This document shows, one piece after another, positions 41,092 to 43,726 of a stretch of 64,000 bases of DNA (its first letter is position 1; every line of letters begins with the position of its first letter). The notes beneath the pieces are model-generated. The model was given only the letters and a program-made list of their open reading frames with translations. It was not told the DNA's origin and searched no databases. Made by a program: the position numbers and the translations under genes. The DNA comes from Escherichia coli (GTDB taxonomy: Bacteria > Pseudomonadota > Gammaproteobacteria > Enterobacterales > Enterobacteriaceae). The stretch lies in assembly GCF_016026235.1 (NCBI RefSeq), contig NZ_CP065613.1. One strand, written 5' to 3'.

Positions 41092-41274
41092 TCTCTGGCA
41101 CACAGCAACAGGAACGAAAAATGAAGATAGCGACGATAAAAACTGGGCTTGCTTCACTGGCGATGCTGCCGGGACTGGTAATGGCTGCACCTGCGGTGGC
41201 CGATAAAGCCGACAATGCGTTTATGATGATTTGTACTGCGCTGGTGCTGTTTATGACTATTCCGGGGATTGCCC

Positions 41275-42567
41275 CTGAGGGATCCCCAGAAAATTTAGTA
41301 AACCATTATCATATTGGTATACCGTTGCTGTAGAACTTTCAGCCCTGCGTCAAGTGACAGTGTGTTTAGTATGAGTGGAGAATGTCGAATCACATTCTCC
41401 GCCAGTTTTAATAACGAGATGACTCGCCTGTGCTTCACTGTATTTGCCTGATATTTATGATGTATCCCTTTGTTTTCCAGGCTGAAACCGCTTAACCACA
41501 TAATGATACTGGCTAATGTTGCGATCAGACTCAATACCGTGACCCGCCCGGATGAATGACTGGCACCAAACCGTAGTCCAAATCCCCAGCGAGGATTTTT
41601 TCATCCCTGAAATTTTGCTCAATTTGCATTCTACGGCTGTATAATTTCATTACCTGTTTTGGCGAGAACTCAGTACTGTTTGTGAAAATAAACCATGGTG
41701 ATTTCCCGGCAGTACGAGCTTTAGCCGTCACCGATGGTCTGGTTGCTCTTTCCTTCGAGCGTTTAAATCTACGACCTTTAGGCTTACTTTTATAAAGATA
41801 AAAATGCCCTTCATGTTGTGCATTTTTATCTCGACCCAGCAGGCCTTCACCTAAATAAATTGCTGTCGTTGATGCTTTTGTGCCTGAGTCCGACACCTTT
41901 TCCCAGCCATTACCAACATTGTAATAATGATTGCCCAGTACCCGGCAAATATAGGTCCAGCCACGGGAGCGGAGCTGTTGGAACCATCGCCCCTGAAAAC
42001 CGGCATCTGTAATAACAATGACATCAGTCCCGGGGGAAAAGCACTCAGCAAGCGATTCCAGAAAACGCTCATGTACATCTGCATTCGCTGTCTGTGATGA
42101 TGGAACGACACAACTCATCAACGGTAAAGAACGCCCGTCACATGCCAGGCTTGCCCGCAAAAGCTGAAAACGAGAGGCATGATAAGCACTCCAGTCAATG
42201 AGTATCACAACACGAGACATTCCCCGCGTAATCTTTTGGGTAATTCGCTGAAAAATGGTGGAAACCTCATTTTGCAAATGTCGATTCCCCAACAGTCGAT
42301 CCACCCGCTTTATTTTGTTTTTAACTGATGCCGTACCGGTTAAATGACGCCCGATACTGGTAAGTGTGAGGGAAGCGCCATTTATTACAGCATTAGTTGC
42401 GTCAATCAGTGATTTTTGACGGTAAAGATGCAAAGGGGCCAGTATGTTGTTAAGGAAATTTTGGCATAATGAACGTGCAGGCATAGTGGTGATCTCCTTG
42501 AAATTGTTAGCACAATCAATTAGATCACATCTCACTATGCCTGTCTTGTTTTCTGGGGATTCCTCAG
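41275..42567 (-). mobile_element. IS10-like (IS4 family) insertion sequence, about 1.29 kb
   Basis: terminal inverted repeats CTGAGGGATCCCCAGAAAA / CTGAGGAATCCCCAGAAAA; 9-bp direct repeat GGGATTGCC at 41265..41273 and 42568..42576; encodes an IS10-like transposase. Confidence 0.88.
41295..42484 (-). pseudogene. IS4-family DDE transposase, apparently frameshifted (two ORFs: 41531..42484 and 41295..41534)
   Basis: N-terminal part carries KIKRVDRLLGNRHL; C-terminal ORF carries HHKYQANTVKHRRVISLLKLAENVIRHS, both resembling IS10 transposase from memory; frames offset by 1 nt at ~41531. Confidence 0.7.
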
Positions 42568-43726
42568 GGGATTGCCCTGTTTTACGGTGGGTTGATTCGC
42601 GGCAAAAACGTGCTGTCGATGCTGACGCAGGTGACGGTGACATTTGCACTGGTCTGTATTCTCTGGGTGGTTTACGGTTACTCGCTGGCGTTTGGTGAGG
42701 GCAACAACTTCTTCGGCAACATTAACTGGTTGATGCTGAAAAACATCGAACTGACGGCGGTGATGGGCAGCATTTATCAGTATATCCACGTAGCGTTTCA
42801 GGGATCGTTTGCCTGCATTACCGTAGGCTTGATAGTTGGGGCGCTGGCGGAACGAATCCGCTTCTCAGCTGTGTTGATTTTCGTGGTGGTATGGCTGACG
42901 CTCTCTTACATTCCAATTGCGCATATGGTCTGGGGCGGTGGTTTGCTGGCTTCTCACGGTGCGCTGGATTTCGCGGGTGGCACGGTGGTGCACATTAACG
43001 CCGCAATCGCCGGTCTGGTGGGCGCGTATCTGATAGGAAAACGCGTGGGCTTCGGTAAAGAGGCGTTTAAACCGCACAACCTGCCGATGGTCTTCACCGG
43101 GACTGCCATTCTCTATATCGGTTGGTTTGGCTTTAACGCCGGGTCAGCGGGCACGGCGAATGAAATCGCGGCACTGGCATTTGTGAATACTGTGGTCGCA
43201 ACGGCGGCGGCAATTCTTGGCTGGATCTTCGGTGAATGGGCGCTGCGTGGTAAGCCTTCACTGCTGGGGGCGTGTTCTGGCGCGATTGCCGGTCTGGTCG
43301 GCGTGACGCCAGCCTGTGGCTACATTGGTGTTGGCGGCGCGTTGATTATCGGCGTGGTAGCTGGTCTGGCGGGCTTGTGGGGCGTTACCATGCTCAAACG
43401 CTTGCTGCGGGTGGATGATCCCTGCGATGTCTTCGGTGTGCACGGCGTTTGTGGCATTGTCGGCTGTATCATGACCGGGATTTTTGCCGCCAGCTCGCTG
43501 GGCGGCGTGGGCTTCGCTGAAGGTGTGACGATGGGCCATCAGTTGCTGGTACAGCTGGAAAGCATTGCCATTACGATCGTCTGGTCCGGTGTGGTGGCAT
43601 TTATTGGCTACAAACTGGCGGATCTGACGGTTGGCCTGCGTGTGCCGGAAGAACAAGAGCGAGAAGGGCTGGACGTCAACAGTCACGGCGAGAATGCCTA
43701 TAACGCGTAACAAGCACTGCAAAAAA

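What the first reader, a model, noticed from the sequence alone, without database searches (positions are those of the whole stretch)
42478..42543. 11-bp perfect fold-back repeat covering the transposase start codon, with GATC sites in the leader
CAGGCATAGTG (42478..42488, containing the transposase ATG on the minus strand) is perfectly complementary to CACTATGCCTG (42533..42543), 44 nt further out towards the IS end. Transcripts reading in from outside the element would pair across the start codon and block translation, while a promoter inside the loop would escape. Two GATC (Dam) sites at 42491..42494 and 42523..42526 sit in the RBS/promoter region. This mirrors the fold-back inhibition and Dam control described for IS10, implying the same multilayer control in this relative.
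Basis: partly seen in the sequence, partly recalled or inferred. Interest (0 to 1): 0.45.

Follow-up and report, generated by a model that had tools for sequence, protein, structure and literature searches.

The report
IS10-type control hairpin in ISEc60
The repeat is real and is the outer part of a 66-nt hairpin at the start of the transposase gene of insertion sequence ISEc60; it is the counterpart of the well-known IS10 control region (antisense RNA, fold-back block of read-through transcripts, Dam methylation sites), so it is an ordinary, though previously undescribed, member of a textbook system.

Summary
Observation confirmed: CAGGCATAGTG (42478-42488) and CACTATGCCTG (42533-42543) are perfectly complementary, the inner arm holds the transposase ATG (42484-42482, minus strand), and both GATC sites are where stated. 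The 11-mer is only the base of a longer stem (11 bp, then 7 bp GUGAUCU/AGAUCAC, plus apical pairs), about -33 kcal/mol and z about -7 on either strand. The element (41275-42567) is ISEc60, an IS4-family/IS10-group IS inserted in amtB; its transposase is 36% identical to IS10's. Across about 50 relatives from Enterobacterales and Legionella the hairpin is kept with compensatory changes (92% paired versus 30-43% in slid controls; 0/500 shuffles). The geometry matches IS10 almost to the nucleotide: a GATC overlaps a TGnTCTAAT -10-like motif in the 5' arm, the predicted mRNA start lies at the hairpin apex, an extended -10-like motif on the opposite strand puts an antisense start at ATG+7, and GATC occurs at the inside end but not the outside end. 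It missed that the same repeat encodes an RNA-OUT-like antisense RNA with a U-rich tail, and missed the inside-end Dam site. All mechanistic steps are inferred; nothing was tested experimentally. New member of a known kind; low to moderate interest.

The parts
41275..42567 (-). ISEc60 insertion sequence (IS4 family, IS10 group), 1293 bp, inserted in amtB; outside end at 42567, inside end at 41275
   Evidence: 99.9% identical to RefSeq elements annotated 'IS4-like element ISEc60 family transposase'; terminal inverted repeats 41272-41293 / 42549-42570 (I1); ends defined by comparison with 46 relatives
41265..41274 (.). Left copy of the 10-bp target-site duplication GGGATTGCCC
   Evidence: Identical 10-mer on both flanks; 10 bp in 12/12 relatives with an intact duplication
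42568..42577 (.). Right copy of the 10-bp target-site duplication GGGATTGCCC
41295..42484 (-). Transposase gene (396 aa in intact copies), frameshifted in this copy by loss of one A from an A7 run (T-run at 41590-41595 on the + strand)
   Evidence: ORF list; intact protein from L001; single difference from L001 located at 41595; 36% identical to IS10 transposase, E 9e-75, with the YSRRMQIEQNFRDEK (Y-2-R-3-E-6-K) motif aligned; PF01609
42478..42543 (.). Complete hairpin: outer helix 42478-42488 / 42533-42543 (11 bp, the reported repeat), 4-nt asymmetric bulge, inner helix 42489-42495 / 42522-42528 (GTGATCT/AGATCAC, 7 bp), apical pairs, tetraloop 42508-42511
   Evidence: (I7, I8); covariation
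42494..42499 (-). Shine-Dalgarno AAGGAG, 9 nt upstream of the ATG, in the 3' half of the hairpin
   Evidence: sequence
42482..42484 (-). Transposase start codon ATG, inside the inner arm of the outer helix
42519..42527 (-). Putative pIN-like extended -10, TGATCTAAT (hexamer TCTAAT 42524..42519), overlapped by Dam site GATC 42523-42526; aligns with IS10 TGATCAAAT
   Evidence: alignment with IS10; TGATCnAnT in 48/58 relatives and GATC here in 53/58; inferred as a promoter by homology only
42542..42547 (-). Putative pIN-like -35, AAGACA, 17 nt upstream of TCTAAT
   Evidence: nnGACA with an exact 17-nt spacer in 45/48 relatives; inferred
42511..42513 (-). Predicted start of the native transposase mRNA (IS nt 55-57), at the apex of the hairpin
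   Evidence: Inferred from the 6-7 nt distance to the -10, as in IS10 (RNA-IN start nt 81, -10 ends nt 74); not shown experimentally
42462..42470 (+). Putative pOUT-like extended -10, TGGCATAAT, inside codons 5-8 of the transposase gene
   Evidence: TGnCAwAnT conserved at a fixed distance in nearly all relatives including Legionella; third positions of codons 5 and 6 are A in 81% and 87% versus a 20% background
42477..42554 (+). Predicted RNA-OUT-like antisense RNA (about 70-78 nt): 5' end at ATG+7, stem-loop, U-rich tail UCUUGUUUUCU (42544-42554)
   Evidence: Rfam RNA-OUT aligns end to end at 42477-42547 + (16.8 bits, below the gathering score of 41); clade model R1 90.5 bits here and its only hit in IS10 is the RNA-OUT locus; fold -31.6 kcal/mol, z -7.2; U-rich tail conserved
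42491..42494 (.). Second leader GATC, between SD and ATG; pairing partner of the promoter GATC within the inner helix
   Evidence: present in only 31/58 relatives and absent from IS10
41281..41284 (.). Dam site GATC at nt 7-10 of the inside end (CTGAGGGATCCCC); the outside end has GAATC instead
   Evidence: Inside end GATC in about 41/46 relatives, outside end without GATC in 42/46; IS10 itself has the same asymmetry (L008)

Best explanation
The repeat is the base of the regulatory hairpin of ISEc60, the counterpart of the IS10 RNA-IN/RNA-OUT region, and one piece of DNA serves several layers of transposase control. (1) On the + strand, a promoter inside the first codons of the transposase gene (TGGCATAAT, 42462-42470) makes a small antisense RNA of about 70-78 nt that starts at about 42477. 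It folds into the stable stem-loop and ends in the U-rich tail after the stem. Its 5' half is complementary to the SD and ATG region of the transposase mRNA, and its apical loop faces the mRNA 5' end, so it can block ribosome binding in cis and in trans (multicopy inhibition). (2) On the minus strand, the weak native promoter (AAGACA-17-TCTAAT) lies within the 5' arm, so the native mRNA starts at the hairpin apex (about 42512), lacks the outer arm and can be translated. Any transcript entering from flanking DNA carries both arms, folds back and buries the ATG. (3) The GATC overlapping the -10 of the native promoter, and the GATC at nt 7-10 of the inside end only, would couple expression and end use to passage of the replication fork, as in IS10. 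Shown here: the sequence, folding energies, conservation, covariation and positional identity with IS10. Inferred: both promoters, both transcript ends, antisense inhibition, and the Dam effect.
For: Hairpin stability: sense -33.7 (z -6.75), antisense -31.6 (z -7.2); a transcript starting inside the loop gives -8.9 (z 0). ATG P(unpaired) is 0.00 in read-through versus 0.34-0.53 in native-like transcripts; footprint 0.25-0.30 versus 0.58-0.60. IS10 behaves the same way under the same tools (sense -18.9, RNA-OUT -23.9, RNA-IN unstructured). The transposase is homologous to IS10's (36% identity, E 9e-75). Conservation: nearly all of 56 non-redundant leaders fold into the same hairpin with the ATG in the 3' arm. 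Covariation: 91-92% of cells paired versus 30-43% when slid, 8-10 pairs with two-sided changes, 0/500 shuffles on all five measures; the Legionella relative (32% identity) has different arm sequences that still pair. RNA rather than DNA: many G-U pairs; the antisense fold is more stable in 37/56 and the sense fold in 18/56, with 116 versus 66 G-U pairs. Reciprocal model hits at exactly the homologous place and strand: Rfam RNA-OUT on the window at 42477-42547 +; clade model R1 on IS10 at L008 1234-1316 minus, against true RNA-OUT at 1246-1315. Promoter geometry: TGATCnAnT in 48/58, nnGACA-17 nt in 45/48. Antisense TGnCAwAnT is conserved, with synonymous-site A at 81% and 87% versus 20%. Antisense start at ATG+7 in both ISEc60 and IS10. 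U-rich tail, mean 7.4 T in 12 nt. End asymmetry of GATC as in IS10. IS10 mechanism as described in PMC5006887 (RNA-IN/RNA-OUT, Dam site over the -10, RNA-OUT ends at nt 47), PMC13181058 (translation signals sequestered in secondary structure, citing Davis et al. 1985) and PMC3701705 (Dam acts through expression-dependent and -independent routes, citing Roberts et al. 1985).
Against: There are no expression data of any kind. The consensus promoter and terminator scan finds nothing in 42350-42650, although the same scan also misses IS10's experimentally proven pIN and pOUT, so it is uninformative. The Rfam RNA-OUT score (16.8 bits) is far below the gathering score (41), and the reciprocal hit is E about 0.2, so RNA-level homology is not established by score alone. 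Eight relatives have CATACC (no final T) in the putative antisense -10. A-rich codons just after a start codon are common for other reasons. The relatives are not phylogenetically independent, so the shuffle and Wilcoxon figures overstate significance. GATC is not enriched in the element overall. This copy's transposase is frameshifted, so the regulation has nothing functional to regulate here.
Confidence: 0.72

Rival explanations
1. Fold-back inhibition only. The hairpin exists solely to silence read-through transcripts, and no antisense RNA is made.
For: The sense fold is very stable and buries the ATG. Neither promoter is detected by the consensus scan.
Against: The antisense-strand fold is the more stable one in 37/56 relatives, with nearly twice as many G-U pairs. 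A conserved extended -10-like motif with constrained synonymous sites sits at the right distance on the antisense strand. A U-rich tail follows the stem only on the antisense strand. IS10, the homologue, makes RNA-OUT from exactly this position (PMC5006887).
Confidence: 0.1
2. Antisense RNA or outward terminator only. The hairpin is selected as the body and terminator of the antisense transcript (or as an insulator stopping transcription leaving the IS), and pairing in read-through sense RNA is an unselected by-product with little effect in vivo.
For: Strand asymmetry favours the antisense fold. There is a U-rich tail on the antisense strand. Translating ribosomes or helicases might open the sense hairpin.
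Against: The sense fold is still -27.5 kcal/mol on average across the clade and -33.7 here, and it fully pairs the ATG. In IS10, sequestration of translation signals in read-through transcripts is an experimentally described effect (Davis et al. 1985, as cited in PMC13181058). The two functions are not exclusive.
Confidence: 0.13
3. DNA-level palindrome: a binding site for a dimeric protein (host factor or transposase) or a cruciform near the outside end, unrelated to RNA.
For: It lies 25-90 nt from the IS end, where IS10 has host-factor (IHF) binding (my own knowledge, not tested here). The inner helix is built around the palindromic GATC.
Against: The arm sequences change while pairing is kept, including G-U pairs, which would be mismatches in DNA. 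The Legionella relative keeps the structure with different sequence. A 4-nt asymmetric bulge and a 66-nt span are atypical for a protein-binding site.
Confidence: 0.04
4. Chance inverted repeat with no function.
For: About 0.9 perfect 11-bp inverted repeats with a short spacer are expected per random 64 kb.
Against: z about -7 for the full stem; conservation and covariation across about 50 relatives; positional identity with IS10.
Confidence: 0.01

Closest known systems
IS10 / Tn10 transposase control region (pIN/RNA-IN, pOUT/RNA-OUT, fold-back inhibition, Dam sites)
   Same: Homologous transposase (36% identity). Hairpin with the ATG in the 3' arm and a GATC overlapping a TGATCnAAT -10 in the 5' arm. 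Predicted mRNA start at the apical loop. Antisense start at ATG+7, giving an overlap of about 35-36 nt. Antisense -10 at ATG+14..+19 versus +15..+20. Native mRNA unstructured, read-through folded. GATC at nt 7-10 of the inside end but GAATC at the outside end.
   Different: The leader is 24 nt shorter (ATG at nt 84 versus 108) and lacks the segment between the end and the hairpin. The hairpin is much more stable (-32 to -34 versus -19 to -24 kcal/mol). There is a good SD (AAGGAG), where IS10 has none. A U-rich terminator-like tail follows the antisense stem, where IS10's RNA-OUT 3' end at nt 47 has none. There is an extra GATC in the SD-ATG spacer. The target duplication is 10 bp rather than 9 bp. 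No stop codon lies in frame in the leader. The primary sequence of the arms is unrelated.
Rfam RF00240 (RNA-OUT)
   Same: The model aligns end to end (1-70) on the correct strand and in the correct register at 42477-42547.
   Different: 16.8 bits against a gathering score of 41; real IS10 scores 98.8 bits. The ISEc60-clade RNAs are not captured by the curated family. A model built from the clade scores 90.5 bits here and only 13.6 bits on IS10.
IS200 art200 antisense sRNA plus 5'UTR stem-loop (PMC4513863)
   Same: A cis-encoded antisense sRNA and an mRNA secondary structure that sequesters the ribosome-binding site both repress transposase translation.
   Different: Unrelated transposase family (IS200/IS605). 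In IS200 the two elements are described as acting independently, and the structure forms in the native mRNA, not only in read-through transcripts.
IS50 / Tn5 Dam control (my own knowledge)
   Same: IS4-family element with Dam sites in the transposase promoter and at the inside end.
   Different: No antisense RNA; uses an inhibitor protein. A different subgroup of the IS4 family.

Membership tests
IS4 family, IS10 subgroup (the element) | DDE transposase of the PF01609 type with the Y-(2)-R-(3)-E-(6)-K signature | tested here: met
   PF01609 precomputed for the clade proteins; YSRRMQIEQNFRDEK aligns with IS10 YSKRMQIEETFRDLK; motif definition from PMC2266710
IS4 family, IS10 subgroup (the element) | Significant full-length similarity to IS10 transposase | tested here: met
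   36% identity over 375 aa, E 9e-75
IS4 family, IS10 subgroup (the element) | Terminal inverted repeats starting CTGA and a target duplication of about 9-10 bp | tested here: met
   CTGAGGAATCCCC / CTGAGGGATCCCC against IS10 CTGATGAATCCCC / CTGAGAGATCCCC. The duplication is 10 bp here, where IS10 gives 9 bp (my own knowledge); PMC2266710 gives 'about 10 bp' for the family
Rfam RF00240 RNA-OUT | Score at or above the curated gathering threshold (41 bits) | tested here: not met
   16.8 bits, E 6.8; positive control IS10 98.8 bits
IS10-type antisense control (RNA-IN/RNA-OUT mechanism) | Stable stem-loop encoded opposite the transposase 5' end, with its 5' half complementary to the SD/ATG | tested here: met
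   Fold -31.6 kcal/mol, z -7.2; covariation; complementarity follows from being encoded on the opposite strand
IS10-type antisense control (RNA-IN/RNA-OUT mechanism) | An outward promoter in the first codons that produces the antisense RNA | tested here: inconclusive
   Conserved TGnCAwAnT with constrained synonymous sites, but no -35, the consensus scan is negative (its control is also negative on IS10), and there are no transcript data
IS10-type antisense control (RNA-IN/RNA-OUT mechanism) | The antisense RNA is expressed and inhibits transposase translation (multicopy inhibition) | not testable with these tools
   Needs Northern blot or dRNA-seq and trans-inhibition assays
IS10-type fold-back inhibition | Native mRNA starts inside the inverted repeat, and read-through transcripts contain both arms and sequester the start codon | tested here: inconclusive
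   Folding and accessibility support it, and the conserved -35/-10 geometry places the start at the apex. The transcription start itself is inferred, not observed
IS10-type Dam control | GATC overlapping the -10 of the transposase promoter | tested here: met
   GATC 42523-42526 overlaps TCTAAT in the same register as IS10 GATC/TCAAAT; 53/58 relatives. This rests on the promoter assignment being correct
IS10-type Dam control | GATC in the inside-end transposase-binding site, absent from the outside end | tested here: met
   41281-41284; clade statistics and IS10 control
IS10-type Dam control | Expression and transposition rise in dam- or hemimethylated state | not testable with these tools
   Requires dam+/dam- fusion and transposition assays

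The most novel reading that the evidence does not exclude
The ISEc60/ISSfl9/IS1330-like clade (hundreds of transposase clusters across Enterobacterales, with an outlier in Legionella) encodes its own family of RNA-OUT-like antisense sRNAs that current Rfam models do not recognise. Unlike IS10's RNA-OUT, these end in a canonical hairpin plus U-run terminator. In multi-copy genomes (up to about 38 copies in one E. coli strain) these sRNAs would act in trans and set copy-number limits. ISEc60 in particular has lost all in-frame stop codons from its leader, so in-frame insertions into expressed genes could make host-gene::transposase fusion proteins whose translating ribosomes melt the hairpin and escape both fold-back and antisense control.
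Probability: 0.4. Interest if true: 0.4.

Novelty: new member of a known kind. Interest (0 to 1): 0.25.

Why it matters
It shows that the multilayer IS10 control module is conserved almost nucleotide for nucleotide in geometry across a large IS10-group clade whose transposases are only about 36% identical to IS10's and whose hairpin arms have different sequences. That module comprises the antisense RNA, fold-back silencing of read-through transcripts, a Dam site over the promoter and a Dam site at one end only. This is good comparative support for the classical IS10 model, which rests on genetics in a single element. It also gives a ready alignment for a new or extended Rfam family. Practically, it predicts small antisense RNAs in many Enterobacterales genomes that annotation pipelines currently miss. 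It does not reveal a new mechanism.

Tried and rejected
1. The consensus promoter/terminator scan of 42350-42650 found nothing. I do not count this as evidence, because the same scan also misses IS10's proven pIN and pOUT.

2. An Rfam search of eight loci together did not report RNA-OUT for any ISEc60-clade locus at E <= 10. Only the narrower search of the window did. The RNA is therefore not a member of RF00240 by the curated threshold.

3. RNAalifold on the 42-sequence alignment recovered only the outer helix, because indels blur the inner one. I specified the full structure by hand for pair counting.

4. I considered whether the SD pairs with downstream codons 9-11 in the native mRNA (fourth fold; SD P(unpaired) 0.11 for a start at nt 56). 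I rejected it as significant: z is 0.02 and it depends on the start point.

5. GATC enrichment over the whole IS: none (5 versus 4.9 expected).

6. Searching for this amtB::ISEc60 junction in complete E. coli genomes found no match, so the source genome was not identified.

7. A literature search for ISEc60 found two papers that mention it only in passing. The IS4-family classification paper does not discuss antisense RNA or Dam.

8. The mir-970 and other weak Rfam hits are generic hairpin matches and were ignored.

Full report
**What is there**

The window carries glnK and amtB, and amtB is interrupted at 41275-42567 by a 1293-bp element with terminal inverted repeats (CTGAGGGATCCCCAG... at the left...CTGGGGATTCCTCAG at the right; I1). 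The element is flanked by a 10-bp direct repeat, GGGATTGCCC (41265-41274 and 42568-42577).

It is 99.9% identical to elements that RefSeq annotates as 'IS4-like element ISEc60 family transposase'. The transposase is on the minus strand with its ATG at 42484-42482, preceded by AAGGAG (42499-42494).

Intact copies encode 396 aa. The window copy lacks one A of an A7 run (T-run at 41590-41595), so it is frameshifted. The protein is 36% identical to IS10 transposase over 375 residues (E 9e-75), with the Y-2-R-3-E-6-K signature aligned. The element is therefore a member of the IS10 group of the IS4 family.

**Checking the observation**

The two GATC sites are at 42491-42494 and 42523-42526.

An 11-bp perfect inverted repeat with a short spacer is not rare in itself. 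About 0.9 are expected per random 64 kb, and the real window has eight.

This one is different because it is directly continued inward by a second helix (GTGATCT/AGATCAC, 42489-42495 with 42522-42528; I8) and by a few apical pairs. The whole 66-nt hairpin folds at -33.7 kcal/mol on the sense strand (z -6.75) and -31.6 kcal/mol on the antisense strand (z -7.2). None of 200 shuffles is as stable. The two GATC sites are base-pairing partners within the inner helix.

**Comparative evidence**

Blast with the end-plus-leader segment found diverged relatives in E. coli: 94% ISEc60 variants, ISSfl9-like at 85%, and unnamed IS4-family elements at 72-80%.

A protein search found a large clade of 395-405 aa transposases at 51-91% identity across Enterobacterales. 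A scan of one genome per species returned 79 loci, including a Legionella relative at 32% identity.

Of 56 non-redundant leaders, nearly all fold into the same hairpin with the ATG in the 3' arm. On a 42-sequence sense alignment that includes IS10:
- 91% of cells form standard pairs, against 31-42% when the partner is slid by 1-3 columns.
- Eight pairs show changes on both sides.
- None of 500 shuffles reaches the observed value on any of the five measures.

On a 49-sequence antisense alignment without IS10 the figures are 92% versus 30-43%, ten pairs, and 0/500. One pair alone occurs as A-U (30), C-G (10) and U-A (5). The Legionella element has unrelated arm sequences (GCAAGC.../...GCTTGC) that still pair across its ATG. 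The relatives are not independent, so these statistics overstate significance, but the slide control keeps relatedness and is unambiguous.

**Which strand?**

G-U pairs on one strand are A-C mismatches on the other, so the two strands can be told apart. Across the clade the antisense-strand fold is more stable in 37 of 56 leaders and the sense fold in 18. The means are -29.8 versus -27.5 kcal/mol, with 116 versus 66 G-U pairs. IS10 shows the same bias (RNA-OUT -23.9, sense -18.9).

This argues for RNA rather than DNA, and suggests that the antisense RNA is at least as strongly selected as the sense fold-back.

**Relation to IS10**

Rfam's RNA-OUT model scores 98.8 bits on IS10 at nt 46-115. 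It aligns end to end on the window at 42477-42547 on the + strand, but at only 16.8 bits, against a gathering score of 41.

A covariance model built only from the ISEc60 clade scores 90.5 bits on the window. Its only hit in the IS10 locus is L008 1234-1316 on the minus strand, which is the RNA-OUT gene, at 13.6 bits and E about 0.2. Homology of the RNAs is therefore not established by score. It rests on reciprocal best placement, the homologous transposases and the geometry below.

**Geometry, with IS nt 1 = 42567**

| Feature | ISEc60 | IS10 |
|---|---|---|
| Transposase ATG | nt 84 | nt 108 |
| Leader Dam site (GATC) | nt 42-45 | nt 67-70 |
| Sense -10-like motif | TGATCTAAT, nt 41-49 | TGATCAAAT |
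| Sense mRNA start | predicted nt 55-57, at the 3' edge of the apical tetraloop (42508-42511) | G81, facing the last base of RNA-OUT's apical loop |
| Antisense -10 | TGGCATAAT (42462-42470), at ATG+14..+19 | ATG+15..+20 |
| Antisense RNA start | predicted 42477, ATG+7 | nt 115, ATG+7 |

- The GATC overlaps the first two bases of the -10 hexamer in both elements. PMC5006887 states that the IS10 Dam site overlaps the pIN -10.
- The TGATCnAnT motif is present in 48/58 relatives, and the GATC in 53/58.
- nnGACA lies exactly 17 nt upstream in 45/48.
- The TGnCAwAnT motif on the antisense strand is conserved at a fixed distance in nearly all relatives.
- The two T residues of that motif depend on synonymous third positions of codons 5 and 6. 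These are A in 81% and 87% of loci, against 20% elsewhere in the gene.
- After the stem the antisense strand reads UCUUGUUUUCU. The clade averages 7.4 T in the 12 nt after the stem, so this looks like an intrinsic terminator. IS10 lacks such a tail.

**Fold-back**

With ViennaRNA partition functions, transcripts starting 40-100 nt outside the IS, or at nt 1, have ATG P(unpaired) = 0.00 and a mean accessibility of 0.25-0.27 over the -18..+15 footprint. Transcripts starting at nt 50-60 give 0.34-0.53 and 0.58-0.60.

It corresponds to the effect described for IS10 by Davis, Simons and Kleckner (1985), as cited in PMC13181058.

**Dam**

Besides the promoter GATC, the inside end carries GATC at nt 7-10 (41281-41284), whereas the outside end reads GAATC. 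This asymmetry holds in about 41/46 (inside) and 42/46 (outside) relatives, and in IS10 itself. It matches the expression-independent arm of IS10 Dam control (Roberts et al. 1985, as cited in PMC3701705).

I regard it as a by-product of pairing with the palindromic promoter GATC.

**Weak points**

- All promoters and transcript ends are inferred. The consensus scan finds none, but it also fails on IS10's proven promoters.
- There are no expression data.
- Some relatives lack the final T of the antisense -10.
- The copy in this window is a pseudogene.

**Conclusion**

The repeat is the base of an RNA-OUT-like antisense RNA gene whose mirror image gives fold-back inhibition. The IS10-like second Dam site is at the other end of the element. 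This is a new, well-supported member of a textbook control system, not a new kind of system. The literature library holds only two passing mentions of ISEc60 and no description of this region.

Noticed in passing
window 41590-41595: The window's ISEc60 copy has T6 where intact copies have T7 (an A7 run in the sense strand, ...GAT GAA AAA AAT...). This frameshifts the transposase after residue about 296. It is either a pseudogene or a homopolymer sequencing error.
   Followed up: yes
window 41265-41274 and 42568-42577; loci L001, L009, L016, L024, L028, L033, L038, L045, L050, L051, L058: The target-site duplication is 10 bp in 12 of 12 insertions with intact flanks, not the 9 bp known for IS10. 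Targets are short interrupted palindromes (GGGnnnnCCC, CCCnnnnGGG, CGCnnnnGCG), often at the tip of terminator-like hairpins such as AAAACCCGCttcgGCGGGGTTT.
   Followed up: partly
window 42485-42567 (minus strand); proteins P0001-P0008: The ISEc60 leader has no in-frame stop codon between the outside end and the ATG. This is true of only 3 of 55 clade members; IS10 has three stops. That explains database 'transposases' of 557-680 aa that are host-gene::transposase fusions (AldA, YdbC, TssG and others). In-frame insertions might be translated from outside.
   Followed up: partly
window 41100-41450 (amtB::ISEc60 junction): This insertion in amtB, downstream of glnK, is absent from all 5,426 complete E. 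coli RefSeq genomes, although the flanks are at least 99% E. coli-like. The source genome was not identified. amtB is inactivated.
   Followed up: partly
L005, L011, L012, L018, L030 and others, about 15-35 nt inside the outside end: Many relatives carry an extra segment TAATGGGCGGGTAAAAAAA between the outside end and the hairpin. On the antisense strand this gives a perfect U7 run right after the stem, followed by ACCCGCCC.
   Followed up: no
window 41796-41807 / 41820-41831: A 12-bp perfect inverted repeat (AGATAAAAATGC / GCATTTTTATCT, 12-nt spacer) lies inside the transposase coding region. It gave a weak, spurious-looking Rfam hit (SpF36). Its function, if any, was not examined.
   Followed up: no
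window 10442-10489: An 18-bp perfect inverted repeat with a 12-nt spacer, the longest in the window. It turned up in the chance-expectation scan and is unrelated to the finding.
   Followed up: no
L002 1223-1358: A group II intron D1-D4 domain match (69.9 bits) sits next to a decayed ISEc60 variant in E. coli strain D1, in a mosaic of IS remnants.
   Followed up: no
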